A stretch of DNA of 64,000 nt from a virus (Duplodnaviria > Heunggongvirae > Uroviricota > Caudoviricetes), in IMG/VR virus record IMGVR_UViG_3300032007_000008; one strand, given 5' to 3'. Under the pieces are notes generated by a model that saw only the letters and a list, made by a program, of their open reading frames with translations, did no database searches and was not told the DNA's origin. Each line of letters starts with the position of its first letter. Within the stretch, counting starts at the first letter, position 1. Positions 11,649 through 47,806 of the stretch are shown in pieces. The position numbers were made by a program, and so were the translations under genes.

Positions 11649-11673
11649 GGGAGTTACATCCAAAGTCTCTACG

Positions 11674-11706: not shown

Positions 11707-11719
11707 TCAAGTTTTAATG

Positions 11720-11748
11720 TTGCGCTACGGCGTTTCATGTGATATAAT
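11720..11748 (+). promoter_or_regulatory. Promoter TTGCGC-N17-TATAAT with extended TGtGa
   Basis: ttgcgc 11720-11725 and tataat 11743-11748. Confidence 0.55.
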
Positions 11749-11760
11749 ATGCGTCAAACA

Positions 11761-11940: not shown

Positions 11941-11948
11941 GAACATAC

Positions 11949-27091: not shown

Positions 27092-27260
27092 CCCCTTCGG
27101 TCTTCCGTGGAGGTTCGGCGCGATACCTGACGAAAACAACACTTGGCATGGATGGATTTTCGACTGTAACGGAAACCCTCTGTTTGCAGACACCGAAGCT
27201 GTCAAGTTCATAATAGAATCGGTAAATACTCAAAATGGATACGCCACAGAAAGAGATTGA
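27039..27260 (+). CDS. Hypothetical protein (73 aa)
   Basis: The RBS ggagag is present. Confidence 0.45.
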   Translation: MGETIDFKNAQKKREGDNPFGLPWRFGAIPDENNTWHGWIFDCNGNPLFADTEAVKFIIESVNTQNGYATERD

Positions 27261-27822
27261 ATCGCTTAAAAGCGAAAACGAACGACTTAAGATGTACCTT
27301 ATGGACATCTTTTGCTATGCTTCGATTGGAGGACTCATCGAACATGACAAGATTTGGGAAATAGTTTGTGACGGAATAGCAGACATACTGAAGAAGGACG
27401 GCGTGATGAATCCTGAAACGGACTCTCGAAAAGAGGCCGAAATCCAAATTGGAGAACTGTCAGATGGATATCACACGTTCAACGAACTGTACGAACACAG
27501 AACTGCACTGTTTGCCCTTCTTGCCAACACCTACCCATACTGCAACACCGCATGGAAAAGTAGAAAACACAACGATGGCACTTCATATGATGGTTATTTC
27601 ATATGCGGAATAGACCTACCATGCATAGGCAAAACGGTAACATACCACATAAACGACAAGTACTGGGATTTCTTCGAGAACATCAAGACTCTTGAACAGG
27701 CACCAGCATGGGACGGTCATACTCCATCCGATGTCGTCATCAGGTTATTAGCGGAAAGCACTGTCGCATATTCGCATTCGAAGGAGATGGAAGACAACGT
27801 GAAAAACGGGAGAGACGCATGA
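27235..27822 (+). CDS. Hypothetical protein (195 aa)
   Basis: The ORF is contiguous with its neighbours. No RBS is present. Confidence 0.45.
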   Translation: MDTPQKEIESLKSENERLKMYLMDIFCYASIGGLIEHDKIWEIVCDGIADILKKDGVMNPETDSRKEAEIQIGELSDGYHTFNELYEHRTALFALLANTYPYCNTAWKSRKHNDGTSYDGYFICGIDLPCIGKTVTYHINDKYWDFFENIKTLEQAPAWDGHTPSDVVIRLLAESTVAYSHSKEMEDNVKNGRDA

Positions 27823-28286
27823 ACAAAATTGTGTTTCTCGACATAGACGGTGTTCTTACGACACGAGATACTAGCTATCTCACCCGAAACTATTCTCTCA
27901 ACATGGAAAATGTCGAAAGGGCTAAACGACTTCTCGACAGCACAGGCGCCAAGCTCGTGTGGTCTACCAACTGGCGCGGAATAAAAGATGGCGTGTGGGT
28001 TCATGATGGAATAGAAACCAAAAGCTTATTCCCAATCGCAAAACAGCTTTTCAAAGACTATGAGTTCGAAGTTCCGATGAAGAGAAATCACGGATACCGA
28101 AAATACGTTGACATCATCGAATGGCTAAGGGAAAACATGTGGGCATGGAGCGACTTTGCCATAATAGACGACCAGGGAAATCAGCTTCTCGAACGGTTCG
28201 GAGAAAACTTTTTTAGGACTGATTTCGATGTTGGTCTTACTGACGCAGATGTTTTCAGTATAGAACAATACCTCAAGGAAGAATGA
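27819..28286 (+). CDS. HAD-superfamily phosphatase-like protein
   Basis: Motif I is IVFLDIDGVLTT (DxDG). A Ser/Thr motif (LVWSTNW), a Lys and a DD motif (AIIDDQG) follow. The RBS is gggagag. Confidence 0.6.
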   Translation: MNKIVFLDIDGVLTTRDTSYLTRNYSLNMENVERAKRLLDSTGAKLVWSTNWRGIKDGVWVHDGIETKSLFPIAKQLFKDYEFEVPMKRNHGYRKYVDIIEWLRENMWAWSDFAIIDDQGNQLLERFGENFFRTDFDVGLTDADVFSIEQYLKEE

Positions 28287-29982: not shown

Positions 29983-30019
29983 AAATAAAGATAAAAGGAC
30001 ACGGCTTATCCGTGTCCTT
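29983..30019 (-). terminator. Rho-independent terminator (minus strand)
   Basis: The hairpin is ggacacgg-ctta-ccgtgtcc with a T-rich tail on the minus strand. Confidence 0.7.
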
Positions 30020-30045
30020 TTCCATGCTCCAGCTTTGTACTGTTC

Positions 30046-31317
30046 TTACTTGACCCTCTTCTGAACCGTAGCCTTCTTTGGCGCAGGTGTCACCTCTGGA
30101 GCGGGTGTGACGGCAGCTTCTGGCGACTTTACGGAATCCTCACCGATAAGTTCAAGTGCAATAGCCGCATTCTTGAGCTGGAAGAAGGTGTTCAGCGCAC
30201 TCTCTGCTCCGCTCGAACCGTTTCCGGATGCCATGACCGTCGGGAGCTTGAGCTTGCCGATACCCTCAGCATAAGCCTTAGCCACGCCAATCTTCGTCTC
30301 CTTCTCGATTTCAAGCTTTACGCGCTCCTGCTCGGTGATTGCACCGGACAGCTCGATTTCCTTCTTCTTGGCCTCTGCGGTCGCAACCTTCTGCTCAGCC
30401 TGAAGCTTGATTGCTTCGAGATTCTCAGCCTCGGTTCTCTTCTGAACCTCTGCGACCACAAAGAGCTTCTCAGCCTCGACCTTTGCAACCTCCTTCTGAC
30501 GCTCGACCTCGATGACGGCCTTCTCCTTCTCAAGCTTGGCGACCTCGACAGCCTTAGCAGCCTCAATCTCAGCCATCTTCTTCTCGCGCTCCTTGGACTG
30601 AACGTCCTTCGCCATCTGAGCCTCGGCCTGACCCTTCTGCTCGGCAATCTGCATCTGGTAATTTGCCTCGACCTTCAGCTTCTCCGCTTCGAGCTTGACC
30701 TTCTCCGCTTCCGCGAGACGCTTTGCCAAATCAGCATCCTTCTGCTTGGAGAACTGTGCCTCAGTCTCCTTGTCGTACTTAGGAAGACCCGCACAGGTAA
30801 AGCTAACAACGTCGATACCATCCTTTAGAAGCTCGGCCTCGTGAATGATTGCATCGTGAATCTTCTTTGCGAATTCTGGAAACTTCTCGACCGACTCCGA
30901 AGGCGTGTACTGAGAAGCGACACACTGCGCCACGGTCTGCAAGCTCGTTCGAACCTTCTGCCAAATCTTCTCGTCCGAACCCTCAACCTGCTGGTGGAGG
31001 CGAATAACCGTCTCGTCATTGGTGGAGTCGATTCGATAACCAATCTGACAGTTGAGACGAGCAGTAGTCTTGTTAGAAAACTGCATCACGATTGCGTCGC
31101 GGTCCGCTTCGGAACAGATATCGACAGACGCCTTTGGATACTCCCAGATGCGAGGGAAGAACCTCGGATACCATCCGCCATCCCTGCGAATCTCGATACT
31201 TCCGTTGACATTCTGAATAATCTGAATCTTGTCAACGTTGTTGCAGTGAAACATCTGCAAGAACAGAATCAGAACTGCGACGGCGCAAACGCCCATCATG
31301 AATAGATACTTACCCAT
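30046..31317 (-). CDS. SPFH/Band-7 (flotillin-like) membrane protein with a long Glu/Ala/Lys coiled-coil
   Basis: An N-terminal TM helix is followed by a Band-7-like core (NCQIGYRIDSTNDETVIRL; DGIDVVSFTCAGLPKYDKETEAQF). An EA-repeat-like coiled-coil follows, AEAEKVKLEAEKLKVEA... Confidence 0.6.
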   Translation of the reverse strand: MGKYLFMMGVCAVAVLILFLQMFHCNNVDKIQIIQNVNGSIEIRRDGGWYPRFFPRIWEYPKASVDICSEADRDAIVMQFSNKTTARLNCQIGYRIDSTNDETVIRLHQQVEGSDEKIWQKVRTSLQTVAQCVASQYTPSESVEKFPEFAKKIHDAIIHEAELLKDGIDVVSFTCAGLPKYDKETEAQFSKQKDADLAKRLAEAEKVKLEAEKLKVEANYQMQIAEQKGQAEAQMAKDVQSKEREKKMAEIEAAKAVEVAKLEKEKAVIEVERQKEVAKVEAEKLFVVAEVQKRTEAENLEAIKLQAEQKVATAEAKKKEIELSGAITEQERVKLEIEKETKIGVAKAYAEGIGKLKLPTVMASGNGSSGAESALNTFFQLKNAAIALELIGEDSVKSPEAAVTPAPEVTPAPKKATVQKRVK

Positions 31318-31330: not shown

Positions 31331-31504
31331 TTAGTTGTTTGTTTTCTTGTTTTTGTTGTTTTTGGTTGTTTCCTCAGTAGTGGAGCATTGCTTTTTTCTA
31401 CTGAAAAATTCGCGTGTTCCTAGATATACGACCTGAGCCGTGAACCATACGAATCCACATGCAAGGGTGAATACCAGAATACAGAATAGAAGTTTGATTC
31501 CCAT
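31331..31504 (-). CDS. Small membrane protein (57 aa) immediately upstream of the SPFH gene
   Basis: An internal ATG with the RBS aaaggacaaaaaag was chosen. There is a TM helix followed by a basic tail. Confidence 0.45.
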   Translation of the reverse strand: MGIKLLFCILVFTLACGFVWFTAQVVYLGTREFFSRKKQCSTTEETTKNNKNKKTNN

Positions 31505-31569
31505 TTTCTTTTTTGTCCTTTGATGGCTGCAATTATACCACACCAATGGTTTTATCGCAACTGTTTATT

Positions 31570-32748
31570 TTAAGACTTTTTCGAAAGAGCCTCAAGGTAT
31601 GCGAGAGACTTGCACTTGAAGTGGATGCAGGTGTTAATCTCCCTAGTGTACGTTCCTCCGTTCTCAAGCGTCTCCGTAATGACGTTCTTGTGTATCGGAG
31701 CGTTGATTACAATGCCTTCTCCGAAATCGAGAGGCTTGTCGCGATACTCTTCGAGAAGTTCCTTCGTGAGGATTGCCGTGCCGAGAATTGGAACGGTTTT
31801 TATCTCCTCTCCACAAAGCTCTTTGATTTGCTTGTTGATTTCAAGAAAATGGTAAGGCGTTCCATATACTCCATTCTTCTCCGCAAAATCGGATGCGTCT
31901 GGGAACATCACCCCATATAGGTTGAATGTAGGCTCCGGAACGTCTTTGTCCTTGTTGAAAGAGAACTTCTGCAAATTGGGAGCTACGCACTCTCCACGAA
32001 GAGCAATGCACTTGTTGTTGGCCTTAGCCCATGCAAGTCCCAATGGAATGACCTTTTTGGCGCACCTGTTCCAAATGTTATCACAGCTTACGTTCAGGTC
32101 GTTAGAACGGGAGCATACGTGGTAATCGCCATTCGGCAGGCAGATTATGGTAGTGGACGCTCCATCGAGCTTCTTCGTAAGCAGAACCTCGACCCCGAAT
32201 GGAAGCTCCTGCGGCCTGATGTTCTGGTAGTTCTCCTCGTCGGACTTGGGGATTCCGGCTGGAAGTCCTCCACGCGCCTCAATGTTCCCCATCTTCGGAA
32301 GAGGCGCAGTCCAGTGTCCAACACCGTACTTCCCCTGCAACAGAGAGCCTGGGAACTCGGAACGAAGAATCTCGTCATCCTTTTTCCAGTCTTTTCCGCT
32401 ATCCTGCTTAAACCTCGCGTAGAGCTTTGTCAGAGGTACGATAATGCCAGACGAATACTCTCCGCGAAGCTTGATTGTCTTGACGCGACCGCCTCCTCCG
32501 AGATACTTGATTAAAGGCTCCTGCCATGGATATTTCCACTCGTAGCCGGAAGTGTCTGACAGTCCCTTAACGCTGTCATACTCAAGCAGCTTTGCGTCAT
32601 CGCGAATGTAAAATACCACCTCGCCTTCGGAAATCTCGCCCTTTCCGCAAATGACTTGATAGCCTGACACGATAGCTATGTCGAGCTTGTCTGCTCCAGG
32701 GTGGGGAAATACCTTCTCCACCCTCTCGAAAGTTGCATCCAATGCCAT
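31570..32748 (-). CDS. ATP-dependent RNA ligase-like nucleotidyltransferase with an N-terminal tRNA-binding (OB-fold)-like domain
   Basis: The N-terminus (FPHPGADKLDIAIVSGYQVICGKGEISEGEVVFYI ... KTIKLRGEYSSGIIV) resembles the MetRS-C/Trbp111/CsaA tRNA-binding domain. The ligase core has motif I TKKLDGAST (KxDG), motif IV GEGIVIN and motif V HFKCK. Confidence 0.65.
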   Translation of the reverse strand: MALDATFERVEKVFPHPGADKLDIAIVSGYQVICGKGEISEGEVVFYIRDDAKLLEYDSVKGLSDTSGYEWKYPWQEPLIKYLGGGGRVKTIKLRGEYSSGIIVPLTKLYARFKQDSGKDWKKDDEILRSEFPGSLLQGKYGVGHWTAPLPKMGNIEARGGLPAGIPKSDEENYQNIRPQELPFGVEVLLTKKLDGASTTIICLPNGDYHVCSRSNDLNVSCDNIWNRCAKKVIPLGLAWAKANNKCIALRGECVAPNLQKFSFNKDKDVPEPTFNLYGVMFPDASDFAEKNGVYGTPYHFLEINKQIKELCGEEIKTVPILGTAILTKELLEEYRDKPLDFGEGIVINAPIHKNVITETLENGGTYTREINTCIHFKCKSLAYLEALSKKS

Positions 32749-32763
32749 GTTGTTTTCCTCCTA

Positions 32764-33903
32764 TCAGAAGAAAAGGTTTCCGTACATTCCGTTGCTGGAC
32801 CACGTGTGCGGGGTAAGCACGAGCTTCGTAACCTTCGGCTTGCGGCTCTCGTCCTCCGAACGGGCGTCCTCCTTGGTGTAGCGTCCAAACGGCCTCTCAA
32901 GGGAAGTCCAGCGAATTCCGTTCTCGTTGATGATGAGATTTCCGGTGCCGCGGTCTATGCGCCCCTGCGTCATGTCGAAGCACACCTCGATGTTCGGGTG
33001 GTTCGAACCCTCGCAAGTCAGATACTCAACATCATCGTCGTCATCGACACAAATCCACTGCGCATTGGCGGTAAGCTCGATTCCGTCGATTACGGTCTTG
33101 ATGTCATAGCACTTGCGCTCCTCGGAAATATCGATGTTAAGGTCGTTCACGGACTCCTTCAGTGAATAACCATTGTTAAGCTCGTTAACGATTGCCGCGA
33201 GAATGTCGTAGTTGATGTCGTGAAACTTCGCGATGAGAACGAGCTTCTCAATGTCGTCGCCTCCATTCTTGAGATTGTCGATAGCATACTCGCGAACCTC
33301 TTCCTCTGCAAGATAGTTGAACTTGAAGTGGTAGTAGAAGCGGCCTGGGCGGTTGATGAAGAACTCCGAAAGCTTGTGGCAGCTGTTGATTGCCACCATG
33401 AACAGCTTCTTTCCGCTGTCGGTTCCGTCAAAGAGAGAAAGGAACTGAGTCTGACCGCCCTGCTCGTCTCCGTCGTGCATACCGTCCTTGAGAAAATTCT
33501 TCTCAAACTCGTCGAAGAGGACGACGCACTCCTGGTCGATTTTTCCGAGAAAATCGGCAAGACCCGGAATGTCACCCGAAACAACGATGACCGGCAGACC
33601 ACGCTCGATTGCCTTCTCAGCGGTATACCGCATAAAGACGCTCTTTCCCATGCCCTTGTCTCCGCTCAAAAGAATTCCAAGGTTCTTCGAGCGATTATCG
33701 AACGTCTTGAAAATCTTCTCCACACGACGCGGAGTATTTCCGTAAATCTTGAAATTCCCAGTCACAAGCTCCTTTCGCTCAGAGAGCCAGGTGCCGAACA
33801 TCTGGCTGAAGTTGATTGTGTAGACTTTCGGAGGAAGATTGGAAATGATTTTGGTTCCACCGTCCACCACCCTATAGTTAATGCCATTGTTAGAATACTG
33901 CAT
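32764..33903 (-). CDS. Classic AAA ATPase
   Basis: Walker A is GDKGMGKS and Walker B is VVLFDEFE. Sensor-1 is AINS. The second-region-of-homology arginines are in NRPGRF. Confidence 0.75.
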   Translation of the reverse strand: MQYSNNGINYRVVDGGTKIISNLPPKVYTINFSQMFGTWLSERKELVTGNFKIYGNTPRRVEKIFKTFDNRSKNLGILLSGDKGMGKSVFMRYTAEKAIERGLPVIVVSGDIPGLADFLGKIDQECVVLFDEFEKNFLKDGMHDGDEQGGQTQFLSLFDGTDSGKKLFMVAINSCHKLSEFFINRPGRFYYHFKFNYLAEEEVREYAIDNLKNGGDDIEKLVLIAKFHDINYDILAAIVNELNNGYSLKESVNDLNIDISEERKCYDIKTVIDGIELTANAQWICVDDDDDVEYLTCEGSNHPNIEVCFDMTQGRIDRGTGNLIINENGIRWTSLERPFGRYTKEDARSEDESRKPKVTKLVLTPHTWSSNGMYGNLFF

Positions 33904-33932
33904 GATTACTCCTTTGTGATTTGATGCCGCCT

Positions 33933-33961
33933 ATTATAGCACAAAACTTGACAGTTCGCAA
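33933..33961 (-). promoter_or_regulatory. Promoter (minus strand) TTGCGA-N17-TATAATaggcggc driving the AAA gene
   Basis: The reverse complement reads ttgcgaactgtcaagttttgtgctataataggcggc. Confidence 0.55.
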
Positions 33962-33997
33962 CAAAAAATCTCAGCAAGTTTTCAACTGCTGAGATTT
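33962..33997 (-). terminator. Rho-independent terminator (minus strand) downstream of the vWA gene
   Basis: aaatctcagca...tgctgagattt, followed by T6 on the minus strand. Confidence 0.65.
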
Positions 33998-34026
33998 CTG
34001 TGCGGCTCTATGGCCTATGCGTTCTA

Positions 34027-35607
34027 TCAACCGGCAAGTGCCTCCGCCACAGGCTCGTATCGAGCCGAGTTCAGCTTCTTGACGAGAATTGCATGGGGGT
34101 CGAGTTCGTTCGACATAACCATATCCACGTTGTTGGAGCTGAAGCCCGAGATGAGGGCAACGCCGGACTTGGACTGCTGCAACGGCACGGTGCCGGTGCG
34201 GCTGTTAAGGTTCCAGAAGACAAGCTTCGGCATTACATAGCCGTTGGCCTCGAACTTGCGAGAAATGCCGTCAAACAAGGTCTTGCCCTTAGCATCCCAA
34301 TTGCCGCGTCCGTAATATCCGTCGCCAATCGAAGGTGCGTAGCACTGAGCGTCGAACTCGCAATCGCTGAAGATGAGAACCGTCGAAGGAATCTCGTTCT
34401 GCGACATGTGGTTGTCCACGGCAGTCTTGAGGATAAGGTCGAAAACGGCCTCGATATCCGTGTTGTCGTACAGCGACTTCGCAAAGGCAAGCTGCAAGCG
34501 GTCCTTGAGGGACTTGCAGTTCGTCATGTCAACGAACGATGGCTTTGACGAGAACGTGATGTACTTGTCCTTGAACTCGCCGTTGCAGTGCTGCGCAAAG
34601 TAGAAGCCAAGCGCGTGTGCGACTTCCCATGCGCTGACGTTCGTGCCTCCGATTGTGGAGGTCATCGAACCGCTTGAGTCAACGACGCACATTACGCCTC
34701 CGTCGGAGTCCTTCAGCTTGTTCGGCATGGCGTTCCACATCGCCTCGACAGTCGGGTCGTCCGGAATCTGACACTTTCTGTTGCCATAGCCCCAGCTGCT
34801 CTTCGCTTGCGAGTAGAGCTTGTGGAGAATGTCGTGCGGGAATACGGCCTCGGAAGCGTTGATTTTCGCCTCGCCGCTCTTTACGGAATCAAGGTAAGCA
34901 TTGCGACGAGCTTCATCATGCTTCTTGAATGCATCCTTGTAGAGCAGGTTTGCGCGTGACGGAACGTGCTCGTAGTCGATTTCGGAGAAGTTCTTTGCGG
35001 ACATCTTCACTTCAACAACGTCGATGTACTTGCGCAACGCCGAGAGGGTCTTGCGATACTTGCGAGGAGACACCTCAAGGGCTGTAATCCACCTACGGGC
35101 AAGAGACTTCGTGCTCTCGGAAGATGTGTTCTCGGACGGCATCCACTTCGCAAGAAGCGAAACGGACTTGCCCTCGCGCATCTTCTCAACGTCATCGGAG
35201 AGCTGTCCGGCGACAATTTCGATGACATCGTTGCGAAGCTTCGAGTCGATAAGCATGACAAGGTTGTCCCAACGGGTGTATTCCGGTACGAGACGAATGA
35301 CCTTCTTTGCGATATCGTTCTTGTTCGAGACAAGCCAGTCCATGCAGACGCGGAACGTGCGACGCTCTCCACATCCGCCACGAATGTCGCCGATGAAAAA
35401 CAGGAACTTGACGGCAAGGCTCGGGTCTTCGAAGTACACCTTCGCAAACCTTTCAGCGATGGACGAATCCGTCTCGTTTCGGAGAGAGGACAGCATGAAA
35501 TTCATGGTAAGAATCTCCGAACCTGCGGATGCATATCCAATCGCTCCGTTCTCGGTGATGGAGATTTCGTTGTTGAGGGTCTTCTGCATTGCGTTAGCGA
35601 ATGACAT
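34027..35607 (-). CDS. vWA-domain (MIDAS) protein, 526 aa; possibly Ro60/TROVE-like or DUF2828-like
   Basis: The MIDAS motif VMCVVDSSGSM (DxSxS) sits in the C-terminal half. The N-terminal 300 aa or so is unassigned. The Ro60/DUF2828 attribution is inference only. Confidence 0.55.
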   Translation of the reverse strand: MSFANAMQKTLNNEISITENGAIGYASAGSEILTMNFMLSSLRNETDSSIAERFAKVYFEDPSLAVKFLFFIGDIRGGCGERRTFRVCMDWLVSNKNDIAKKVIRLVPEYTRWDNLVMLIDSKLRNDVIEIVAGQLSDDVEKMREGKSVSLLAKWMPSENTSSESTKSLARRWITALEVSPRKYRKTLSALRKYIDVVEVKMSAKNFSEIDYEHVPSRANLLYKDAFKKHDEARRNAYLDSVKSGEAKINASEAVFPHDILHKLYSQAKSSWGYGNRKCQIPDDPTVEAMWNAMPNKLKDSDGGVMCVVDSSGSMTSTIGGTNVSAWEVAHALGFYFAQHCNGEFKDKYITFSSKPSFVDMTNCKSLKDRLQLAFAKSLYDNTDIEAVFDLILKTAVDNHMSQNEIPSTVLIFSDCEFDAQCYAPSIGDGYYGRGNWDAKGKTLFDGISRKFEANGYVMPKLVFWNLNSRTGTVPLQQSKSGVALISGFSSNNVDMVMSNELDPHAILVKKLNSARYEPVAEALAG

Positions 35608-35663
35608 AATTGTTTCCTTTTTTTTGTGTTTGAATTAAGTTTTTTGTTGTTTTTGAAAGAACA

Positions 35664-35906
35664 TCAGCGATGGCGGTACTTCTTGCATCCATCCGTCTTG
35701 CGAGCCTTGTATTCTCCGCTCGCCTTGCATCGGCCTGGATGGTTTGTGAAAGATGCACAAGTGCAGCATTTTCCGTCGTTCAGCTTTGTCCCCTTAGCTT
35801 TCGTGGTCTTTGCCGATTCCTTGGCTTCCTTCGGAATTTTTGGCACCTTAGAGGACTTCTTCGATGTGACGTTTGTCTTTTGTTTAGTCTCAGTCTTCTT
35901 GCTCAT
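35664..35906 (-). CDS. Small, very basic, Cys-containing protein (80 aa)
   Basis: The RBS aaaaggaaaac is present. The composition is rich in Lys, Thr and Ser. Confidence 0.5.
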   Translation of the reverse strand: MSKKTETKQKTNVTSKKSSKVPKIPKEAKESAKTTKAKGTKLNDGKCCTCASFTNHPGRCKASGEYKARKTDGCKKYRHR

Positions 35907-35944
35907 GTTTTCCTTTTGTTTTCTGTTTCACTCAAACGCCGCCT

Positions 35945-35973
35945 ATTATACCACAGAAACATAAACGGCGCAA
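35945..35973 (-). promoter_or_regulatory. Promoter (minus strand) TTGCGC-N17-TATAATaggcggcgtttgag (conserved leader)
   Basis: The reverse complement reads gtttctgtggtataataggcggcgtttgag. Confidence 0.6.
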
Positions 35974-35991
35974 CACTTTTTCGTAAAAATT

Positions 35992-37200
35992 TTAGAAGAA
36001 GAAACCAGCATATTTCATCATAAGGTCTTCATGCCTCTTTAACGAGGCATCCCAGTCGGGATTCGAATAGTCTTCCTTTTCTACCTCCCACGTCTTCGTG
36101 TTAACGAACACGTTTGGAGACCAATCCCCTCCGTTCTTCTTGTATTGCCCATGTTTGCAATATCCAAGCGGATTCATGACACATAAGCAGTTTCCAATCT
36201 TGAAGCTGCTTCTGTGGTGAACATGGCCGCAGACCCAGCATTTTATCTGTGGATGAGATATTATGAAATCGTCAAGCTCCGACACGTAAGAGGCGTTCAT
36301 GGAGTCGTTAACGTATTCATCGCTTATGCACTTGGAGCTTGGGCAGTGATGCGTCATCACAACGATGTCTTTCGACGGATTCTCTTCAACGATTCTCTTT
36401 ATCTCGGAAAACGTCCGTTCGAAAAACCTCAGGTAATTTTCAGGTGTAAGGTAGAACTTGTCCGAATCATCCCATGGTTCGCGCTTGTAGGTGCCTTCTC
36501 TGGTTTTTCCGAAGTTGAAGTCGTTCATGCCACCGCCAGACATCTTTGGCGTTGCCATACGCATGTTTAACGCCTTGAAAGAATCGCCCTTGGACAGAGG
36601 ATAATCTATCGGAAACTCATAGTTCGTATAAAGAGTTGAACATACGAACAGTATGCCATCAACCTCTTTCGACATGACACCAACCGATTGGTCGAGAAAC
36701 GATATGTCGCCGCTTTCAGGAAACTCCTTGTGGTAATCCTCCTTAAGCTCCTCTATGGTTTTACCGTCGCGATTGTATACTATGTGGTTTCCGGCTATGA
36801 AAATTCCCTTGGATATATTGTTCCTAATCCAATCTGACGAAGATGAACGTGTTATTGTTATGGTATCTCCGTTTTTTGCCATGTCTAGGTTCCTTATGCG
36901 GATGCCGAGGTTCAGAAGAGATACCCTCTTTCCATCCGAATCCACCCAATGGCCAACATTCTTGCCATCTTCCGTCTTGTAAGTGATTTTCATAGAACCG
37001 GTCTCGAAATGCTCCATGATTTCCCCGTCAGACTCTATTCTCGGCTGAACAAGAACGTTTGACGATTCCACGGACACGAGTTTTCTCTCTCCGCTTATAT
37101 CGCCCGCAATCAAAGTGAACACTCCGTCCTTTTTCAGCGACAGTGGGTAGTCGTAGTTGTAGTCTATGTGAAGGTCGCTTATTACTCTGAACTTTTCCAT
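35992..37200 (-). CDS. Calcineurin-like metallophosphoesterase
   Basis: The motifs are ISDLHID (DxH), AGDIS (GD), IAGNHIVY (GNH) and VCGHVHH (GHxH). Confidence 0.75.
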   Translation of the reverse strand: MEKFRVISDLHIDYNYDYPLSLKKDGVFTLIAGDISGERKLVSVESSNVLVQPRIESDGEIMEHFETGSMKITYKTEDGKNVGHWVDSDGKRVSLLNLGIRIRNLDMAKNGDTITITRSSSSDWIRNNISKGIFIAGNHIVYNRDGKTIEELKEDYHKEFPESGDISFLDQSVGVMSKEVDGILFVCSTLYTNYEFPIDYPLSKGDSFKALNMRMATPKMSGGGMNDFNFGKTREGTYKREPWDDSDKFYLTPENYLRFFERTFSEIKRIVEENPSKDIVVMTHHCPSSKCISDEYVNDSMNASYVSELDDFIISHPQIKCWVCGHVHHRSSFKIGNCLCVMNPLGYCKHGQYKKNGGDWSPNVFVNTKTWEVEKEDYSNPDWDASLKRHEDLMMKYAGFFF

Positions 37201-37207
37201 GCCGTAA

Positions 37208-37236
37208 AGTATACCATATTATCCGAATTTCCGCAA
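37208..37236 (-). promoter_or_regulatory. Promoter (minus strand) TTGCGG-N17-TATACT. The ATG is only 7 nt downstream, so the mRNA is probably leaderless.
   Basis: The reverse complement reads ttgcggaaattcggataatatggtatactttacggcATG. Confidence 0.5.
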
Positions 37237-37265
37237 TAATAAAAAAGGCCGGCAAAATGCCGGCC
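37235..37265 (-). terminator. Rho-independent terminator (ggccggca-aaa-tgccggcc followed by a T-run on the minus strand)
   Basis: A perfect 8-bp stem with A/T runs on both sides. Confidence 0.8.
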
Positions 37266-37293
37266 AATACATACCAAGAAATTCAGTTCTCGA

Positions 37294-37821
37294 TTACTTG
37301 GAGGTCTTCTTGGCGGTACGCCTGCGAGTCTTCGACTTCGCGGTGAGAGAAGCCTTCACGACCTTGCAGTCCTTGCAGTCGTCCTTACCCTTTGCGGCAT
37401 GGAGCTTGTCTGCGTAAACGCCAACCTTCTCAATAATCTTGTGAATCTGACGGTTGAAGTTCTTGCCGAAGCTGAACTTGAGAATAGCCCATGCAACCGC
37501 AGTCGCCTCGTCGTACTTGTCGTTCTCCGAGCGAACGACGGAAACCTTCTCTCCGCCGTCGAAGATTACGATTGTCTCGTCCCCCTTGAACACGACCTTG
37601 CGCACAGCCGCCGCGCCAACGGCGACAGGAAGGAAGTTCATTGGAACGCTGTCAGGCGAAATGCGCTTCACAACCCTGAACCCATCGTCGCCTACGAGAG
37701 TCGCGACGGTAGGCATACCAAGGCCGCTCATGAAGCTCTTGCGTGAATTTACGGAGTAGGGAAAACGCGCCTCCTTGCGGAAACTGTCCTTTGTACGTCC
37801 GTTAGTCTTTGTCTTAGCCAT
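37294..37821 (-). CDS. Hypothetical protein with basic N- and C-termini
   Basis: An internal ATG with the RBS aaaggaaaaaag was chosen over the longer ORF to 37917. Confidence 0.5.
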   Translation of the reverse strand: MAKTKTNGRTKDSFRKEARFPYSVNSRKSFMSGLGMPTVATLVGDDGFRVVKRISPDSVPMNFLPVAVGAAAVRKVVFKGDETIVIFDGGEKVSVVRSENDKYDEATAVAWAILKFSFGKNFNRQIHKIIEKVGVYADKLHAAKGKDDCKDCKVVKASLTAKSKTRRRTAKKTSK

Positions 37822-37852
37822 TTCTTTTTTCCTTTTACTGTTTCTTGGTTTG

Positions 37853-38170
37853 TTAAGCGATATCGAACTTTGACTTGAAATTCCTTGAAAAGTCGCGAGC
37901 GTCGCTGCGAGTTCCAAATCCGAGTGTTGCCATCGGAACGGACTGGTTCGAGATTACAACAGTCCAGTCCTCTCCACGCGAATGCGAATGCTCAGTGGTG
38001 GTCGATTTGACATCACCATGCTTCCACAACGAAGTGTACGAAAAATCGCCAGACTTCGCCTTTACGCTGATTCCGCTCTTACGGCGGCTGAACTTCATCG
38101 TAGTCTTTCCGTGAGTAACCTTTACGGTATCCTTGCGGAAAGTCGCCATGTTCTTTGTATTCTTTTTCAT
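37853..38170 (-). CDS. Hypothetical basic protein (105 aa)
   Basis: The RBS is gaggaacaag. Confidence 0.5.
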   Translation of the reverse strand: MKKNTKNMATFRKDTVKVTHGKTTMKFSRRKSGISVKAKSGDFSYTSLWKHGDVKSTTTEHSHSRGEDWTVVISNQSVPMATLGFGTRSDARDFSRNFKSKFDIA

Positions 38171-38182
38171 TTTACTTGTTCC

Positions 38183-38953
38183 TCAATAATTTCGGAATGA
38201 ACTTCTGAATGTCCTTTTCCTCGTGTTCGGCGAATAGTATATCACATTATCACTATTTCCGCAACAGCTTTTCTTTTCTTTTTTGTCGGAATCTTCTAGC
38301 CAGTCGTTTTCATATGCAACAAAGGCGAACACCGCGCCTGCCATTAGAAAACTCCATGCAATCCAAAATATCATCGTAGCATGAGAAGTTGTTTCGTATT
38401 CGTACACCTCAGGAATAGTCTTTTCGTAATATACCGGAGTGTCGTCTGATATTGTCTTGTCCTTAAGCTCGGAAAATATAGTGCAGTTGAATGTTCGTGG
38501 GCGAGTCTCGAAGATTATCCTCTTGTGGTGTCCATTCGAAACGGTTTTCGATGAATACGGCACGGAGCTAAAGTTAAATTTTGATACGGGTAAACGGATT
38601 CCGATAAACTTGCAGCTCGTGGCCTTATCCCTCTCCACGGAATACGTATCCCAAGTCCAGTAATGCTCCAACCGTGTTCGGTGTACACGGTGTTTTCCGC
38701 TCCCTGTTGTATAGTGTACTACCCGTGTGTGCATCTGATACTTCTGGTATGTCCTTACTATCTCAAGATGCTTACCATCAATCCTATCGTCGGACACGGC
38801 ATCCTCGGTGAAGAAGTTTCCGTATGCAAATGTATATCCAAGGTCTGTTCTCATCGCATGGGAAAACTCATCGCTGGACTCAGAAATCTGAGCTGCCTGT
38901 CGGTATTTTAACGTGCTCTGATTCACAGAATGCTCTATTGAGGTAGATATCAA
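38183..38953 (-). CDS. Hypothetical protein with a C-terminal TM helix (the start is uncertain; the ORF begins at TTG)
   Basis: This is the longest ORF. No convincing ATG/RBS pair was found. Confidence 0.4.
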   Translation of the reverse strand: MISTSIEHSVNQSTLKYRQAAQISESSDEFSHAMRTDLGYTFAYGNFFTEDAVSDDRIDGKHLEIVRTYQKYQMHTRVVHYTTGSGKHRVHRTRLEHYWTWDTYSVERDKATSCKFIGIRLPVSKFNFSSVPYSSKTVSNGHHKRIIFETRPRTFNCTIFSELKDKTISDDTPVYYEKTIPEVYEYETTSHATMIFWIAWSFLMAGAVFAFVAYENDWLEDSDKKEKKSCCGNSDNVIYYSPNTRKRTFRSSFRNY

Positions 38954-45627: not shown

Positions 45628-45652
45628 TTGTTTTTTGTTCCTTTATAAGATG

Positions 45653-46480: not shown

Positions 46481-46492
46481 TATATCACATGT

Positions 46493-47080: not shown

Positions 47081-47081
47081 A

Positions 47082-47759: not shown

Positions 47760-47806
47760 TTGCAGTGCCTACAGTTAGGGATATGACCGACCTGAATTCC
47801 ACGCCA

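What the first reader, a model, noticed from the sequence alone, without database searches (positions are those of the whole stretch)
31570..37236. Candidate RNA/tRNA-repair or RNA-surveillance module: tRNA-binding-domain RNA ligase, classic AAA ATPase, vWA/MIDAS (Ro60- or DUF2828-like) protein and a metallophosphoesterase
Four same-strand neighbours, each with its own promoter, make up the module.
- (i) A 392-aa protein has an N-terminal segment that strongly resembles the MetRS-C/Trbp111/CsaA tRNA-binding OB domain (HPGADKL..., KLRGEYSSG). This is fused to a covalent nucleotidyltransferase ligase core, with KxDG in TKKLDGAST, EGxVxN in GEGIVIN, and KxK in HFKCK.
- (ii) A bona fide classic AAA ATPase carries Walker A and B motifs plus the RPGRF second-region arginines.
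- (iii) A 526-aa protein has a C-terminal vWA domain with a DSSGSM MIDAS motif. That layout is seen in Ro60/TROVE-vWA and DUF2828-type proteins.
- (iv) A calcineurin-like phosphoesterase carries all four metal-binding motifs.

In bacteria, Ro60 (Rsr) operons often carry RNA ligases. Pnkp-type RNA-repair enzymes combine a phosphoesterase with a ligase. AAA plus vWA pairs form chaperone-like remodellers. Elsewhere in the window the element also encodes a PTH2-type peptidyl-tRNA hydrolase and a HAD phosphatase.

Taken together this looks like a phage-borne system for repairing or quality-controlling tRNA or other RNA, plausibly as a counter-measure to host tRNA/anticodon nucleases. That is a host-defence mechanism for which only T4 Pnkp/Rnl1 is a classic phage counter-measure. 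This particular gene combination is not a described system to my knowledge.
Basis: partly seen in the sequence, partly recalled or inferred. Interest (0 to 1): 0.85.

Follow-up and report, generated by a model that had tools for sequence, protein, structure and literature searches.

The report
Phage Ro60-like RNA repair gene island
A large gut or rumen phage carries a co-regulated gene cluster (a Ro60-like RNA-binding ring protein, a nick-sealing RNA ligase, a phosphoesterase, a protein-remodelling ATPase and a membrane scaffold) that most likely repairs or quality-controls tRNA during infection; this kind of system has been predicted by comparative genomics but never tested in this form.

Summary
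Three details need correcting:
- The ligase is an ordinary Rnl5-family (DraRnl/NgrRnl) nick-sealing RNA ligase. Its N-terminal OB domain is intrinsic to that family, not a tRNA-binding fusion.
- There are four promoters of one class for six genes. The Ro60-like gene and the ligase have no promoter of their own.
- The island is larger. It includes an 80-aa basic Cys-rich protein, an SPFH/Band-7 protein and, convergently, a HAD_SAK_2 "RNA-repair" phosphatase.

The 526-aa DUF2828/vWA protein models as a full-length Ro60-like ring with an invariant MIDAS.

The grouping is more than chance. Across 39 phage lineages, the commonest protein-coding neighbour of DUF2828 is an ATP-dependent RNA ligase (9 lineages). 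Metallophosphoesterases, polynucleotide kinases, RlaP, this AAA family, SPFH and PTH2 follow. In 31 of 48 loci, tRNA genes lie within 10 kb on the same strand. The AAA family is itself embedded in tRNA arrays elsewhere.

RNA repair or tRNA quality control is therefore the best-supported reading, by association only. No kinase, tRNA or Y-RNA was found in the window. I class it as a new variant of a known kind, related to Ro60–RtcB operons and the TROVE/SPFH repair systems predicted by Aravind's group.

The parts
37208..37236 (-). Promoter (TTGCGG-N17-TGGTATACT) upstream of the phosphoesterase gene. It directly follows the terminator hairpin at 37247-37265.
35992..37200 (-). Calcineurin-like metallophosphoesterase, 402 aa. 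All metal-binding motifs are intact. It carries a ~100-aa insertion between motifs II and III.
   Evidence: Pfam Metallophos 8.4e-5 and phrog_1649 3.6e-31. TIGR03729 1.9e-9. Motifs located. Orthologues lie upstream of DUF2828 in L081 and L082.
35945..35973 (-). Promoter (TTGCGC-N17-TGGTATAAT) for the 80-aa ORF plus the Ro60-like gene.
35664..35906 (-). 80-aa very basic protein (20 Lys, 4 Arg) with a C-terminal Cys-rich motif. It is co-transcribed with the Ro60-like gene and matches no known family.
   Evidence: An 84-aa gene occupies the same position in L081, and an identical 80-aa product (tblastn, 100%) is encoded in L007.
34027..35607 (-). Ro60-like ring protein, 526 aa. DUF2828 helical-repeat region plus DUF7788 vWA domain, with MIDAS D310/S312/S314/D415.
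   Evidence: Pfam and PHROG hits. AF2 model pLDDT 81, pTM 0.80. The nine best Foldseek PDB hits are all Ro60/Rsr, E 3e-7 to 8e-6, TM 0.39-0.56 over the full length. MIDAS residues are invariant in 50 homologues.
33962..33997 (-). Hairpin plus T-run (intrinsic-terminator-like) directly after the Ro60-like gene.
   Evidence: Sequence; fold.
33933..33961 (-). Promoter (TTGCGA-N17-TGCTATAAT) for AAA plus ligase.
32764..33903 (-). Classic-clade AAA ATPase, 379 aa. Walker A 81-88, pore-loop-like DFLG 117-120, Walker B 127-132, RPGRF 185-189. It has an N-terminal beta domain and a C-terminal beta-rich domain.
   Evidence: AF2 model pLDDT 83.6. Foldseek top hits are Bcs1, B. subtilis YjoB, FtsH/Ycf2, Rpt and p97.
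31570..32748 (-). [quoted passage not shown] N-terminal OB domain plus nucleotidyltransferase domain, with K193 as the predicted adenylylation site.
   Evidence: PF09414 and PF21189. NgrRnl 5cot 1.7e-13. TIGR02306 2e-25. Motifs located.
31532..31560 (-). Promoter (TTGCGA-N17-TGGTATAAT) for the small membrane ORF plus the SPFH gene.
31331..31504 (-). Possible 57-aa single-pass membrane protein (MGIKLLFCILVFTLACGFVWF...) with an RBS, upstream of the SPFH gene.
   Evidence: It was not called as a gene on the public contig, so it is tentative.
30046..31317 (-). SPFH/Band-7-like membrane protein, 423 aa. N-terminal TM helix followed by a long A/E/K-rich coiled coil.
   Evidence: The protein has no Pfam hit of its own. 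Its 70%-identical orthologue in L082 passes Band_7 (25.9 bits against a 23.6 cutoff, 1.1e-5). phrog_200 5e-12. SPFH genes lie beside DUF2828 in L088 and L048.
29993..30021 (-). Strong intrinsic terminator (12-bp stem plus T-run) that ends the SPFH transcription unit.
   Evidence: z = -5.4.
27819..28286 (+). HAD_SAK_2 phosphatase ('HAD domain in Swiss Army Knife RNA repair proteins'). It is convergent with the island and probably part of the same functional neighbourhood.
   Evidence: Pfam 8e-21. The same family lies next to the AAA and/or ligase in L081, L093, L095 and L096.

Best explanation
This is an RNA repair and quality-control island of a large phage, most probably acting on tRNA and built around a Ro60-like RNA-binding ring.

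Shown by computation:
- Protein identities, intact catalytic and MIDAS motifs, and the Ro60-like and Bcs1-like folds.
- A shared sigma-70-type promoter class for all four transcription units.
- The recurrent genomic association of these families with each other and with tRNA arrays.

Inferred mechanism:
1. Early in infection, host RNA polymerase transcribes the four units.
2. The Ro60-like protein captures damaged or misfolded structured RNAs, such as tRNAs nicked by host defence nucleases. By analogy with Ro60, the single-stranded 3' end would thread through the ring.
3. The metallophosphoesterase, and the neighbouring HAD_SAK_2 phosphatase, remove 2',3'-cyclic or 3'-phosphate ends.
4. The Rnl5 ligase seals the resulting 3'-OH/5'-PO4 nick. 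The two halves of a broken tRNA stay base-paired, which gives the ligase the nicked-duplex substrate that Rnl5 enzymes need.
5. The classic-clade AAA ATPase acts as a protein remodeller. It may recycle the Ro60-like RNP or strip bound proteins, possibly docking through the vWA MIDAS.
6. The SPFH protein would give the assembly a membrane-associated platform.

No 5' kinase is encoded in the window. Either the breaks repaired already carry a 5'-phosphate (metal-dependent nucleases), or the kinase lies elsewhere in the ~290-kb genome.
For: Identities:
- Rnl5 ligase.
- Ro60-like fold with invariant MIDAS.
- AAA with Bcs1/YjoB/FtsH-like fold.
- Metallophosphoesterase with all motifs.
- HAD_SAK_2 next door.

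Co-regulation:
- Four of the window's eight TTGCG-N18-TGnTATAMT promoters drive this island; 0.18 are expected by chance.

The grouping recurs with shuffled order and with substituted parts:
- L082 (DUF2828 55% identical): MPE-DUF2828-AAA-Rnl5-...-Band_7.
- L081: MPE-DUF2828-Rnl5, with HAD_SAK_2 convergent.
- L093: HAD_SAK_2-x-AAA-x-Rnl5.
- L096: DUF2828...HAD_SAK_2-x-AAA, with Rnl5 on the other strand.
- L095: AAA beside HAD_SAK_2 and Tpt1/KptA.
- Aeromonas phage LAh_9: AAA-(HNH)-DUF2828-SPFH-...-Rnl2, a different ligase family.
- Pectobacterium phage CBB: Rnl5-(HNH)-DUF2828, with a CCA-adding enzyme and YqeY nearby.
- L043: DUF2828, then an RNA ligase, then a T4-type Pnkp.
- L040 and L056: kinase-MPE-DUF2828-(HNH)-RlaP-...-Rnl5-MPE.

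Unbiased tallies:
- Among 296 same-strand neighbour ORFs in 38 lineages, RNA_ligase is the top Pfam family in both halves of the set. Metallophos, PHA02142, AAA_33, AAA, Band_7, PTH2, YqeY and cREC are also recurrent.
- Nine of 39 DUF2828 lineages have a PF09414 ligase within about 6 kb. Only 289 of 50,697 phage records hold any Rnl5-like gene.
- DUF2828 is reciprocally the commonest neighbour of this AAA family, in 4 of 16 lineages.

tRNA link:
- 31 of 48 DUF2828 loci have tRNAs within 10 kb, all on the same strand and often within 100-500 nt.
- Felixounavirus HY02 has 25 tRNAs starting 166 nt after the gene.
- The AAA gene is flanked on both sides by tRNAs in L011, L020, L022 and L027.

Literature:
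- Ro60 is encoded with the RtcB ligase in an operon induced by cleaved tRNAs (PMC7790460).
- TROVE proteins have been proposed as RNA-repair platforms in jumbo phages (PMC7824862).
- Rnl5 enzymes seal 3'-OH RNA nicks (PMC7261155, PMC5397189).
Against: - All functional evidence is guilt by association. tRNA arrays and their surroundings are known hotspots for accessory genes, so proximity is weaker evidence than it looks.
- The window has no tRNA, no Rfam hit including Y/YrlA-type RNAs, and no room for one. The intergenic gaps are filled by promoters and terminators.
- No polynucleotide kinase, RtcB, RlaP or CCA-adding enzyme was seen in the window, so a full heal-and-seal pathway is incomplete.
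- Most DUF2828 lineages (about 30 of 39) have no ligase within 6 kb. Most AAA lineages (12 of 16) have no DUF2828 nearby.
- The AAA is missing from the close relative L081.
- This metallophosphoesterase family is not adjacent to DUF2828 in GAP32/CBB-like phages that have both.
- The physiological role of Rnl5 is uncharted, and the only genetics points to DNA repair after irradiation (PMC5397189).
- The NgrRnl ATP-contact residues Lys121 and Arg149 align to His and Asn here (alignment; depends on the alignment).
- The one experimental datum on a probable family member, Bas63 gp130, is a counter-defence phenotype against a predicted DNA-targeting system, not RNA repair (bioRxiv 10.1101/2024.10.10.617714).
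- In several siphoviruses DUF2828 sits between the terminase genes.
Confidence: 0.5

Rival explanations
1. The Ro60-like protein handles or protects the phage's tRNA, or acts directly against host defence, without break repair. It would chaperone or quality-control phage pre-tRNAs, hijack host PNPase or other RNases as phiLo phiRo60 does, or sequester a host defence factor. The AAA would assist it. The ligase and phosphoesterase would be separate accessory enzymes.
For: - The strongest and most general association of DUF2828 is with tRNA arrays, not with ligases (31 of 48 loci against 9 of 39 lineages).
- The AAA family is also embedded in tRNA arrays.
- Thermus phage phiRo60 binds Y-like RNAs and host PNPase and attenuates it (PMC12135203).
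- Bas63 gp130 is Ro60-like, sits upstream of the tRNA array, and counters the ppl defence (bioRxiv 10.1101/2024.10.10.617714). Felixounaviruses carry a DUF2828 homologue in exactly that position.
Against: - This window has no tRNA or Y-like RNA next to the gene.
- It does not explain why ligases of different families (Rnl5, Rnl2, NTase-only), Pnkp, RlaP and phosphoesterases are the commonest protein-coding neighbours.
Confidence: 0.2
2. There is no functional module. The genes are independent accessory genes that accumulate in the same variable, early-transcribed region of large phages. Their juxtaposition here reflects inherited synteny within one phage clade.
For: - The surrounding genes are also syntenic in L081 and L082 (dUTPase, a 282-aa protein, a SprT-like protein), so conserved order within the clade is not specific to the module.
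- The AAA is dispensable in L081.
- Most DUF2828 and AAA lineages lack the other partners within 6-10 kb.
- The same promoter class also drives genes outside the island.
- The region is rich in unrelated auxiliary functions, such as NAD salvage and dCMP deaminase.
Against: - The same families recur together in unrelated phage groups: Aeromonas LAh_9, Pectobacterium CBB, and L040, L043, L054, L056. Gene order differs and ligases or phosphoesterases are replaced by non-orthologous ones.
- The top-neighbour relation is reciprocal.
- Ligase hits are concentrated within about 5.4 kb of DUF2828: 11 loci, representing the nine lineages, against 1 locus at 5.4-10 kb.
Confidence: 0.2
3. The island serves DNA transactions. 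The Rnl5 ligase would seal DNA nicks that carry 3'-ribonucleotides, such as primer remnants or damage. The metallophosphoesterase would act as a nuclease or end-cleaning phosphatase. The AAA and the ring/vWA protein would act on DNA ends in a Ku-like manner.
For: - Deleting DraRnl delays genome reassembly after irradiation, and the authors leave open whether Rnl5 and Rnl2 are DNA or RNA repair enzymes (PMC5397189).
- RtcB, Rsr and Y RNAs have also been discussed in DNA repair (PMC7790460).
- DUF2828 sits next to terminase genes in several phages.
- Two DUF2828 loci have an NAD-dependent DNA ligase nearby.
- Ku80 vWA domains appear among weak structural hits.
Against: - The full-length fold matches are to Ro60 only (E about 1e-7). 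The Ku hits are to the vWA domain only, at E about 0.06.
- The neighbourhood is dominated by RNA and translation functions: tRNAs, PTH2, YqeY, CCA-adding enzyme, RlaP, HAD_SAK_2, Tpt1 and T4-type Pnkp.
Confidence: 0.1

Closest known systems
Bacterial rsr-yrlBA-rtcBA RNA repair operon (Salmonella Typhimurium; Ro60 orthologue Rsr, Y RNAs, RtcB ligase, RtcA cyclase)
   Same: A Ro60-type ring/vWA protein is encoded together with an RNA ligase and an RNA 3'-end-modifying enzyme. That operon is linked to cleaved tRNAs (PMC7790460).
   Different: - The ring protein here is DUF2828/DUF7788, with no TROVE Pfam hit.
- The ligase is an ATP-dependent Rnl5, needing 3'-OH/5'-PO4 ends, not the GTP-dependent RtcB, which uses 3'-P/5'-OH ends.
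- A metallophosphoesterase replaces the RtcA cyclase.
- No adjacent Y RNA was found, and there is no RtcR regulator.
- AAA and SPFH genes are added.
- The system is encoded by a phage.
Comparative-genomic 'RNA repair system' syntax of Burroughs & Aravind 2016, applied to jumbo phages in PMC7824862: a ligase, end-healing enzymes, and a scaffold (ROT/TROVE or SPFH/Band-7 with a tRNA-like RNA)
   Same: - The parts match: ligase, calcineurin-like and HAD (Swiss-army-knife) phosphatases, and both a TROVE-like and an SPFH scaffold.
[quoted passage not shown]
   Different: - The 2016 paper is not in the library, so I could not check which architectures it lists. What I say about it rests on my memory of its abstract and on citations.
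- In PMC7824862 I found no mention of the classic-clade AAA partner, the Rnl5 pairing, or the systematic placement of DUF2828 at tRNA arrays. The text searches were limited to four terms.
Phage T4 Pnkp plus Rnl1, and bacterial Pnkp/Hen1: heal-and-seal tRNA repair against anticodon nucleases
   Same: The concept is the same: a phage-encoded phosphoesterase plus an RNA ligase that restores broken tRNA. Some DUF2828 loci carry a true T4-type Pnkp next to the ligase (L043).
   Different: - The window has no polynucleotide kinase.
- The ligase is Rnl5, a duplex nick sealer, not Rnl1.
- The phosphoesterase is a free-standing calcineurin-type enzyme.
- A Ro60-like protein, an AAA and an SPFH protein are added.
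Rnl5 ligases DraRnl and NgrRnl
   Same: The domain order is the same (N-terminal OB plus C-terminal NTase). The motif I Lys, motif III Glu, motif IV Glu and motif V Lys are present. Sequence matches support homology.
   Different: - The protein is 392 aa against about 340 aa, with an insertion between the OB and NTase domains (alignment).
- NgrRnl Lys121 and Arg149 are not conserved in the alignment.
- Activity is untested.
Phage Ro60 homologues with data: Thermus phage phiLo phiRo60 (binds Yrl1/2 and host PNPase) and Bas63 gp130 (counters the ppl defence)
   Same: All are phage-encoded Ro60-like ring/vWA proteins. Bas63 gp130 lies directly upstream of the tRNA array, as DUF2828 does in Felixounavirus HY02 (bioRxiv 10.1101/2024.10.10.617714; PMC12135203).
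   Different: - In the window there are no adjacent Y-like RNAs or tRNAs. The neighbours are instead a ligase, an AAA and a phosphoesterase.
- That Bas63 gp130 belongs to the DUF2828 family is inferred from its genus and position. Its own sequence was not tested.
AAA+ / vWA-MIDAS remodeller pairs (MoxR-vWA, RavA-ViaA, CbbQ-CbbO, Rea1/Mdn1 MIDAS)
   Same: An ATPase gene sits next to a gene for a vWA protein with a complete MIDAS. Rea1 MIDAS appears among the structural hits to the vWA part.
   Different: - The ATPase is a classic-clade AAA (PF00004; Bcs1/YjoB/FtsH-like fold), not a MoxR-type AAA+.
- The pairing is seen in only 4 of 16 AAA lineages and is lost in L081.

Membership tests
Rnl5 (DraRnl/NgrRnl) RNA ligase family | N-terminal OB module followed by a C-terminal nucleotidyltransferase domain, with no C-terminal appendage | tested here: met
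   PF21189 at residues 5-106 and PF09414 at 187-349. Aligns to NgrRnl 5cot over residues 5-322, E 1.7e-13. TIGR02306 2e-25, below the equivalog cutoff of 151 bits.
Rnl5 (DraRnl/NgrRnl) RNA ligase family | Covalent nucleotidyltransferase motifs: I (KxDG Lys), III (Glu), IV (EG), V (KxK) | tested here: met
   K193-L-D-G, R251-G-E253, E344-G-I-V and K378-C-K380. K193, D195 and E253 align to NgrRnl Lys170, Asp172 and Glu227 (PMC7261155).
Rnl5 (DraRnl/NgrRnl) RNA ligase family | OB and NTase residues that contact the ATP gamma-phosphate (Arg4, Asp53, Lys121, Arg149 in NgrRnl) | tested here: inconclusive
   Asp53 is conserved (D51). Lys121 aligns to His and Arg149 to Asn in the HMMER alignment. Arg4 lies outside the alignment. 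The gamma-phosphate contacts are reported as functionally redundant (PMC7261155).
Rnl5 (DraRnl/NgrRnl) RNA ligase family | Mn-dependent sealing of 3'-OH/5'-PO4 nicks whose 3'-OH strand is RNA | not testable with these tools
   Requires biochemistry.
Ro60 / TROVE (Rsr) family | Ring of helical (HEAT-like) repeats closed by a vWA domain | tested here: met
   AF2 model pLDDT 81, pTM 0.80. The top nine Foldseek PDB hits are Xenopus and human Ro60 and D. radiodurans Rsr over about 550-600 aligned columns, TM 0.39-0.56.
Ro60 / TROVE (Rsr) family | MIDAS motif in the vWA domain | tested here: met
   D310-x-S312-x-S314, T383 and D415 are invariant in 50 homologues.
Ro60 / TROVE (Rsr) family | Sequence membership in the TROVE domain family | tested here: not met
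   Pfam gives only DUF2828 and DUF7788 at E<=0.01. phmmer against PDB sequences finds no Ro60. The relationship is at fold level only, so this is 'Ro60-like', not a Ro60 orthologue.
Ro60 / TROVE (Rsr) family | Partner Y RNA or YrlA-type tRNA-like RNA encoded next to the gene | tested here: not met
   No tRNA. No Rfam family at gathering threshold, and none at E<=5 in 27.5-39.5 kb apart from chance-level hits. The intergenic gaps are occupied by promoters and terminators. An unrecognised RNA elsewhere in the genome cannot be excluded.
Classic-clade AAA ATPase | Walker A, Walker B, second region of homology with Arg fingers, and the AAA fold | tested here: met
   GDKGMGKS 81-88, VVLFDE 127-132 and RPGRF 185-189. 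PF00004 2.9e-8. Foldseek hits to Bcs1, YjoB, FtsH, Rpt and p97 at E 6e-10 to 2e-7.
MoxR-vWA type chaperone pair | ATPase of the MoxR/AAA_3/AAA_5 class paired with a vWA protein | tested here: not met
   No MoxR-type Pfam hit was found. The best folds are classic-clade AAA. Only the analogy 'AAA next to a vWA-MIDAS protein' holds.
Calcineurin-like metallophosphoesterase | Motifs DxH, GD, GNH(D/E), H, GHxH | tested here: met
   D9xH11, G33D34, G137N138H139, H284/285 and G325H326xH328. PF00149 23.5 bits against a 21.5 cutoff.
Heal-and-seal RNA repair (T4 Pnkp/Rnl1, Pnkp/Hen1 type) | 5'-OH polynucleotide kinase activity encoded with the ligase | tested here: not met
   No AAA_33/PNK-type kinase appears among the precomputed Pfam hits for genes across about 5-63 kb of the window, nor in my own scans. 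Many small ORFs have no hit, so a novel kinase is not excluded.
Heal-and-seal RNA repair (T4 Pnkp/Rnl1, Pnkp/Hen1 type) | 3'-end healing phosphoesterase encoded with the ligase | tested here: inconclusive
   A metallophosphoesterase and HAD_SAK_2 are present, but their substrates are unknown.
SPFH / Band-7 | SPFH domain after an N-terminal membrane anchor, followed by a coiled coil | tested here: inconclusive
   The window protein has no Band_7 hit of its own. Its 70%-identical orthologue in L082 passes the Pfam threshold. A TM-like N-terminus and an A/E/K/Q-rich segment (98 of 155 residues) are present.

The most novel reading that the evidence does not exclude
The classic-clade AAA ATPase (phrog_2376) and the Ro60-like DUF2828/vWA protein form an ATP-driven ribonucleoprotein remodeller dedicated to tRNA. 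The AAA would engage the invariant MIDAS of the ring protein. It would load, unload or strip proteins from damaged or immature tRNAs, which the Rnl5 ligase and phosphoesterases then mend on an SPFH-organised membrane platform. This would give the first function for the MIDAS of a Ro60-type protein. It would also define a widespread phage 'tRNA repairosome' that counters tRNA-targeting immunity.
Probability: 0.2. Interest if true: 0.8.

Novelty: new variant of a known kind. Interest (0 to 1): 0.6.

Why it matters
tRNA-cleaving defences (PrrC, RloC, VapC-like toxins, PARIS, retrons and others) are a major arm of bacterial immunity. The only well-understood phage repair answer is T4 Pnkp/Rnl1.

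The DUF2828 Ro60-like family is very common in phages. It appears in 710 GenBank phage records, including Felix O1, KVP40, Listeria, Staphylococcus and Enterococcus phages and mycobacteriophages, and in thousands of metagenomic proteins. It has essentially no experimental characterisation.

The family sits systematically at tRNA arrays and next to ligases, kinases, phosphoesterases and RlaP. This makes two open questions directly testable in tractable phages:
- What do bacterial and phage Ro60-type proteins and their MIDAS do?
- What is the physiological role of Rnl5 ligases, which the literature calls 'uncharted' (PMC5397189)?

The AAA link, if real, adds an unexpected energy-dependent step.

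Tried and rejected
- **Nucleotide search:** Megablast of 31-38 kb against GenBank phages found no match, so no close cultured relative exists.
- **PDB sequence searches:** The Ro60-like protein, the AAA and the phosphoesterase gave nothing useful. Only structure prediction plus Foldseek resolved the first two.
- **Partner RNA:** ARAGORN and Rfam, at gathering and permissive thresholds, found no tRNA, Y or YrlA-like RNA. Folding the intergenic regions showed only terminator hairpins and promoters.
- **Defence systems:** PADLOC models gave no meaningful hit, so this is not a known defence system.
- **SPFH comparison:** Direct BLAST of the 423-aa protein against the LAh_9 SPFH protein was not significant. 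SPFH assignment rests on the L082 orthologue.
- **L093 candidate:** The 516-aa protein upstream in L093 was suspected to be a divergent DUF2828. It is not.
- **tRNA control:** I meant the AAA-only loci to serve as a neutral control for tRNA proximity. They are not neutral, because the AAA gene is itself embedded in tRNA arrays. The tRNA enrichment therefore has only a rough back-of-envelope baseline.
- **Phosphoesterase neighbours:** tblastn of the phosphoesterase showed that its homologues in GAP32/CBB-like jumbo phages are not next to DUF2828. This particular phosphoesterase family is not a conserved partner. Other metallophosphoesterase families fill that place elsewhere.
- **Papers not held:** Burroughs & Aravind 2016 (NAR) and the NgrRnl structure paper (PNAS 2015) could not be read. 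A full-text search for 'DUF2828' found only unrelated plant and tardigrade papers.
- **Failed look-up:** One look-up of encoding contigs failed because the start codon I chose differed from the called gene.

Full report
**What is in the sequence**

Six minus-strand genes lie between 37.2 and 30.0 kb:
- a 402-aa metallophosphoesterase (35992-37200);
- an 80-aa very basic, Cys-rich ORF (35664-35906);
- a 526-aa DUF2828/DUF7788 protein (34027-35607);
- a 379-aa AAA ATPase (32764-33903);
- a 392-aa RNA ligase (31570-32748);

Pfam, PHROG and NCBIfam confirm the four named families. The upper coordinate of the finding, 37236, is the -35 element of the phosphoesterase promoter.

**Transcription**

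A promoter of the form TTGCG-N18-TGnTATAMT (extended -10) occurs eight times in the 64-kb window against 0.18 expected. Four copies lie in this island:
- before the phosphoesterase;
- before the 80-aa ORF plus DUF2828;
- before AAA plus ligase;
- before a possible 57-aa membrane ORF plus the 423-aa gene.

Terminator-like hairpins lie before the first promoter (37265-37247), after DUF2828 (about 33997-33962) and after the 423-aa gene (30021-29993). There are thus four transcription units of one sigma-70-like promoter class. That fits co-expression by host RNA polymerase. It does not fit 'each gene with its own promoter': the ligase starts 15 nt after the AAA, and DUF2828 starts 56 nt after the small ORF.

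**Identities**

*Ligase.* It is a member of the Rnl5 clade.
- It matches the Naegleria gruberi RNA ligase structure sequence (E 1.7e-13, residues 5-322) and TIGR02306 RNA_lig_DRB0094 (2e-25).
- It has the clade's signature order: N-terminal OB domain (PF21189) plus NTase domain (PF09414).
Raymond & Shuman already likened this module to the PheRS-beta B2 OB fold (PMC1807946).
- In NgrRnl, however, the OB domain acts in lysine adenylylation through contacts to the ATP gamma-phosphate (PMC7261155). It is therefore not evidence for tRNA specificity, and Pfam tRNA_bind did not hit.
- Motif I K193, D195, motif III E253, motif IV E344 and motif V K378/K380 are intact. NgrRnl Lys121 and Arg149 align to His and Asn, which is a caveat.

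*Ro60-like protein.* Sequence searches of the PDB found nothing for the 526-aa protein.
- An AlphaFold model built on 50 homologues (pLDDT 81, pTM 0.80) has Ro60/Rsr structures as its nine best Foldseek matches, over the full length (E 3e-7 to 8e-6; TM 0.53-0.56 for the eight Ro60 chains and 0.39 for Rsr). Isolated vWA domains come only after these.
- The MIDAS residues D310, S312, S314 and D415 are invariant.
- It is therefore Ro60-like at fold level, but it is not a TROVE-family member by sequence.

*AAA ATPase.* The AAA model (pLDDT 83.6) is closest to Bcs1, B. subtilis YjoB, FtsH/Ycf2, proteasomal Rpt subunits and p97. This marks it as a classic-clade protein remodeller, not a MoxR-type AAA+.

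*The 423-aa protein.* It has no Pfam hit itself. Its 70%-identical orthologue in a related contig passes the Band_7 threshold.

*Nearby genes on the other strand.* HAD_SAK_2 ('HAD domain in Swiss Army Knife RNA repair proteins', 8e-21) lies convergent with the island. A WDGH-domain protein and DUF488-N3a precede it, and PTH2 lies at 17.9 kb.

**Is the grouping more than chance?**

*Within the phage's own clade,* order is partly conserved and partly shuffled.
- L082 (DUF2828 55% identical): MPE-DUF2828-AAA-Rnl5-...-Band_7.
- L081 (73% identical): MPE-DUF2828-Rnl5 without the AAA or SPFH, with HAD_SAK_2 and DUF488-N3a convergent.
- L093/L094 (281-kb contigs): HAD_SAK_2-x-AAA-x-Rnl5.
- L096: DUF2828 about 6 kb upstream (5.8 kb between the genes), HAD_SAK_2-x-AAA, and Rnl5 on the other strand.
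- L095: the AAA beside HAD_SAK_2 and an RNA 2'-phosphotransferase.

*In unrelated phages* the same themes recur with different parts.
- Aeromonas phage LAh_9: AAA-(HNH)-DUF2828-SPFH, with an Rnl2-type ligase 3.7 kb downstream.
- Pectobacterium phage CBB: Rnl5-(HNH)-DUF2828, with a CCA-adding enzyme and YqeY nearby.
- L043: DUF2828, then an RNA ligase with overlapping stop and start, then a T4-type Pnkp.
- L040 and L056: kinase-MPE-DUF2828-(HNH)-RlaP-DUF5662-x-Rnl5-MPE.
- L054: MPE-ligase-x-DUF2828-tRNA(CUA)-PTH2.

*Tallies.*
- I clustered ORFs within 6 kb of DUF2828 in 39 lineages (less than 70% identity to each other). The Rnl5-like ligase was the most frequent neighbour cluster. A ~200-aa metallophosphoesterase, this AAA family, YqeY and an AAA_33 kinase followed.
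- An independent Pfam tally over 296 same-strand neighbour ORFs put RNA_ligase first in both halves of the set.
- With sensitive local searches, 9 of 39 lineages have a PF09414 ligase within about 6 kb. Only 289 of 50,697 phage records have any Rnl5-like gene.
- Reciprocally, DUF2828 is the commonest neighbour of the AAA family, in 4 of 16 lineages.

**The tRNA connection**

- In 31 of 48 metagenomic DUF2828 loci, tRNA genes lie within 10 kb. All are on the same strand, and in at least 13 loci a tRNA is within a few hundred bases of the gene.
- The same holds in Enterococcus VRE9_4, Bacillus vB_BcoS-136, Staphylococcus 6ec and Felixounavirus HY02. In HY02, 25 tRNAs start 166 nt after the stop codon.
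- I scanned AAA-only loci as a control and found that the AAA gene is itself flanked on both sides by tRNAs in four lineages. That spoils the control, but it ties the AAA independently to tRNA arrays.
- The window itself has no tRNA and no recognisable Y-like RNA.

**Most likely mechanism**

I commit to a tRNA/RNA repair and quality-control island at about 50% confidence.
1. The Ro60-like ring captures damaged or misfolded structured RNA.
2. The phosphoesterases clean the 3' ends.
3. The Rnl5 ligase seals nicks in the still base-paired RNA.
4. The AAA remodels or recycles the complex, possibly through the MIDAS.
5. The SPFH protein provides a platform.

The steps shown here are the identities, the motifs, the folds, the promoter sharing and the associations. 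All biochemical steps are inferred from family knowledge: Ro60 structures, NgrRnl/DraRnl biochemistry, and the heal-and-seal logic of T4 Pnkp/Rnl1.

Weak points:
- no kinase in the window;
- the AAA is dispensable in one relative;
- the role of Rnl5 in vivo is uncharted and may concern DNA (PMC5397189);
- tRNA arrays are accessory-gene hotspots;
- the single phenotype for a probable family member, Bas63 gp130, is defence countering, not repair (bioRxiv 10.1101/2024.10.10.617714).

**Comparison with what is known**

- The closest experimentally studied system is the Salmonella rsr-yrlBA-rtcBA operon, in which a Ro60 orthologue is co-expressed with an RNA ligase in response to cleaved tRNAs (PMC7790460).
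- The closest conceptual description is the RNA-repair 'syntax' of Burroughs & Aravind, applied to jumbo phages by Iyer et al. They note ROT/TROVE proteins as repair platforms, plus calcineurin-like and Swiss-army-knife HAD phosphatases (PMC7824862).
- The window differs in several ways. It uses a DUF2828-type ring, an Rnl5 ligase instead of RtcB, and a metallophosphoesterase instead of RtcA. It adds a classic AAA and an SPFH protein, and it lacks an adjacent partner RNA.
- I therefore class it as a new variant of a known kind, not a categorically new system.
- The AAA/Ro60-like pairing and the tRNA-array embedding of both families are the parts I could not find described.

**Caveats on the statistics**

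- Loci extend only 10 kb to each side.
- Lineages were dereplicated at 70% identity of the anchor protein, but some may still share ancestry of the whole region. For L040/L056 this is likely, since all their neighbour genes fall in shared clusters in the same order. For L006/L082 it is shown by the synteny of the surrounding genes.
- ORFs were called mechanically.
- No permutation test on complete genomes was possible.
- The enrichment estimates are therefore rough.

Noticed in passing
L033-L080 (IMG/VR loci), L001, L003, L091, L092: Phage DUF2828 (Ro60-like) genes are systematically placed at tRNA gene arrays. In 31 of 48 loci tRNAs lie within 10 kb, always on the same strand, and often 100-500 nt from the gene. 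In Felixounavirus HY02 25 tRNAs follow directly.
   Followed up: partly
L011 9888-11322; L020 9756-11246; L022 9370-11220; L027 9871-11653: The AAA family of the window (phrog_2376) is embedded inside tRNA arrays in phages that have no DUF2828 nearby, with a tRNA on each side within about 30-450 nt on the same strand. L095 has a tmRNA gene 2.9 kb from the AAA.
   Followed up: partly
window 45040-49099 (-): A five-gene NAD+ salvage and synthesis cluster lies upstream of the island: NAPRTase, an NMNAT-like CTP_transf_like protein, Nudix, NAD synthase and an isochorismatase-family nicotinamidase. It is a likely counter to NAD+-depleting host defences.
   Followed up: no
window 160-4754 (+), compared with 6409, 11740, 31540-38244 and 46487: Two sub-classes of extended -10 promoters exist. 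One has a -35 of TTGACT/TTGACA and is clustered at 0.1-4.8 kb. The other has a -35 of (G)TTGCG and drives the repair island and a few other genes. Many share an AGGCGGC discriminator. This may reflect temporal or strength classes.
   Followed up: partly
window 35664-35906 (-): An 80-aa protein has 24 basic residues and a CCxC...C...C tail and is co-transcribed with the Ro60-like gene. An 84-aa gene occupies the same position in the related contig L081. It could be a small zinc-binding nucleic-acid-binding partner. It matches no known family.
   Followed up: no
window 31331-31504 (-): A possible 57-aa single-pass membrane protein has its own RBS between the promoter and the SPFH-like gene. This recalls the small membrane partners (NfeD-like) often paired with SPFH genes. 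It was not called as a gene on the public contig.
   Followed up: no
L091 (Staphylococcus phage 6ec) 6202-12986; L092 (HY02) 4308-12001; L003; L036, L037, L062: In several phages DUF2828 lies between the small and large terminase genes, in the order TerS - DUF2828 - tRNA(s) - TerL, or next to Terminase_2. This placement is unexplained and bears on the DNA-related rival.
   Followed up: no
L053 4918-4991; L054 11595-11668; also L044, L052, L063, L066, L011, L027: tRNAs with a CUA anticodon (amber suppressors, labelled tRNA-Pyl by ARAGORN) occur in many of these loci. In L053 and L054 one lies immediately after DUF2828. L024 has a UUA-anticodon tRNA. This suggests stop-codon-recoding phages among the carriers.
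   Followed up: no
L024 9068-9943; L026 8179-9141; L029 7846-8721: A homologous ~300-aa protein lies directly upstream of the AAA gene in three lineages. The L026 member, the only one scanned, carries HD-phosphohydrolase and ExoX-like_C domains. This would be another phosphoesterase-AAA pairing.
   Followed up: no
window 24708-25160 and 27235-27822 (+): DUF488-N3a ('active DUF488-N3 subclade') and a WDGH-domain protein lie in the block that converges on the island, next to HAD_SAK_2. DUF488-N3a is also kept near the island in L081.
   Followed up: no
L093/L094 4714-5871; L096 4587-5738: A full-length DnaJ (J domain, Cys-rich domain and C-terminal domain) is encoded 2-3 kb upstream of the AAA in two related jumbo-phage contigs.
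   Followed up: no
L083-L086 (Lachnospiraceae-type contigs), about 12.8-21.2 kb in L083: Downstream of a DUF2828 gene lie a ThiF-like protein, a reverse transcriptase (RVT_1), RNase H and a KTI12/AAA_33 kinase. Unannotated gaps of 450-700 nt flank the DUF2828 gene and could hold non-coding RNAs.
   Followed up: no
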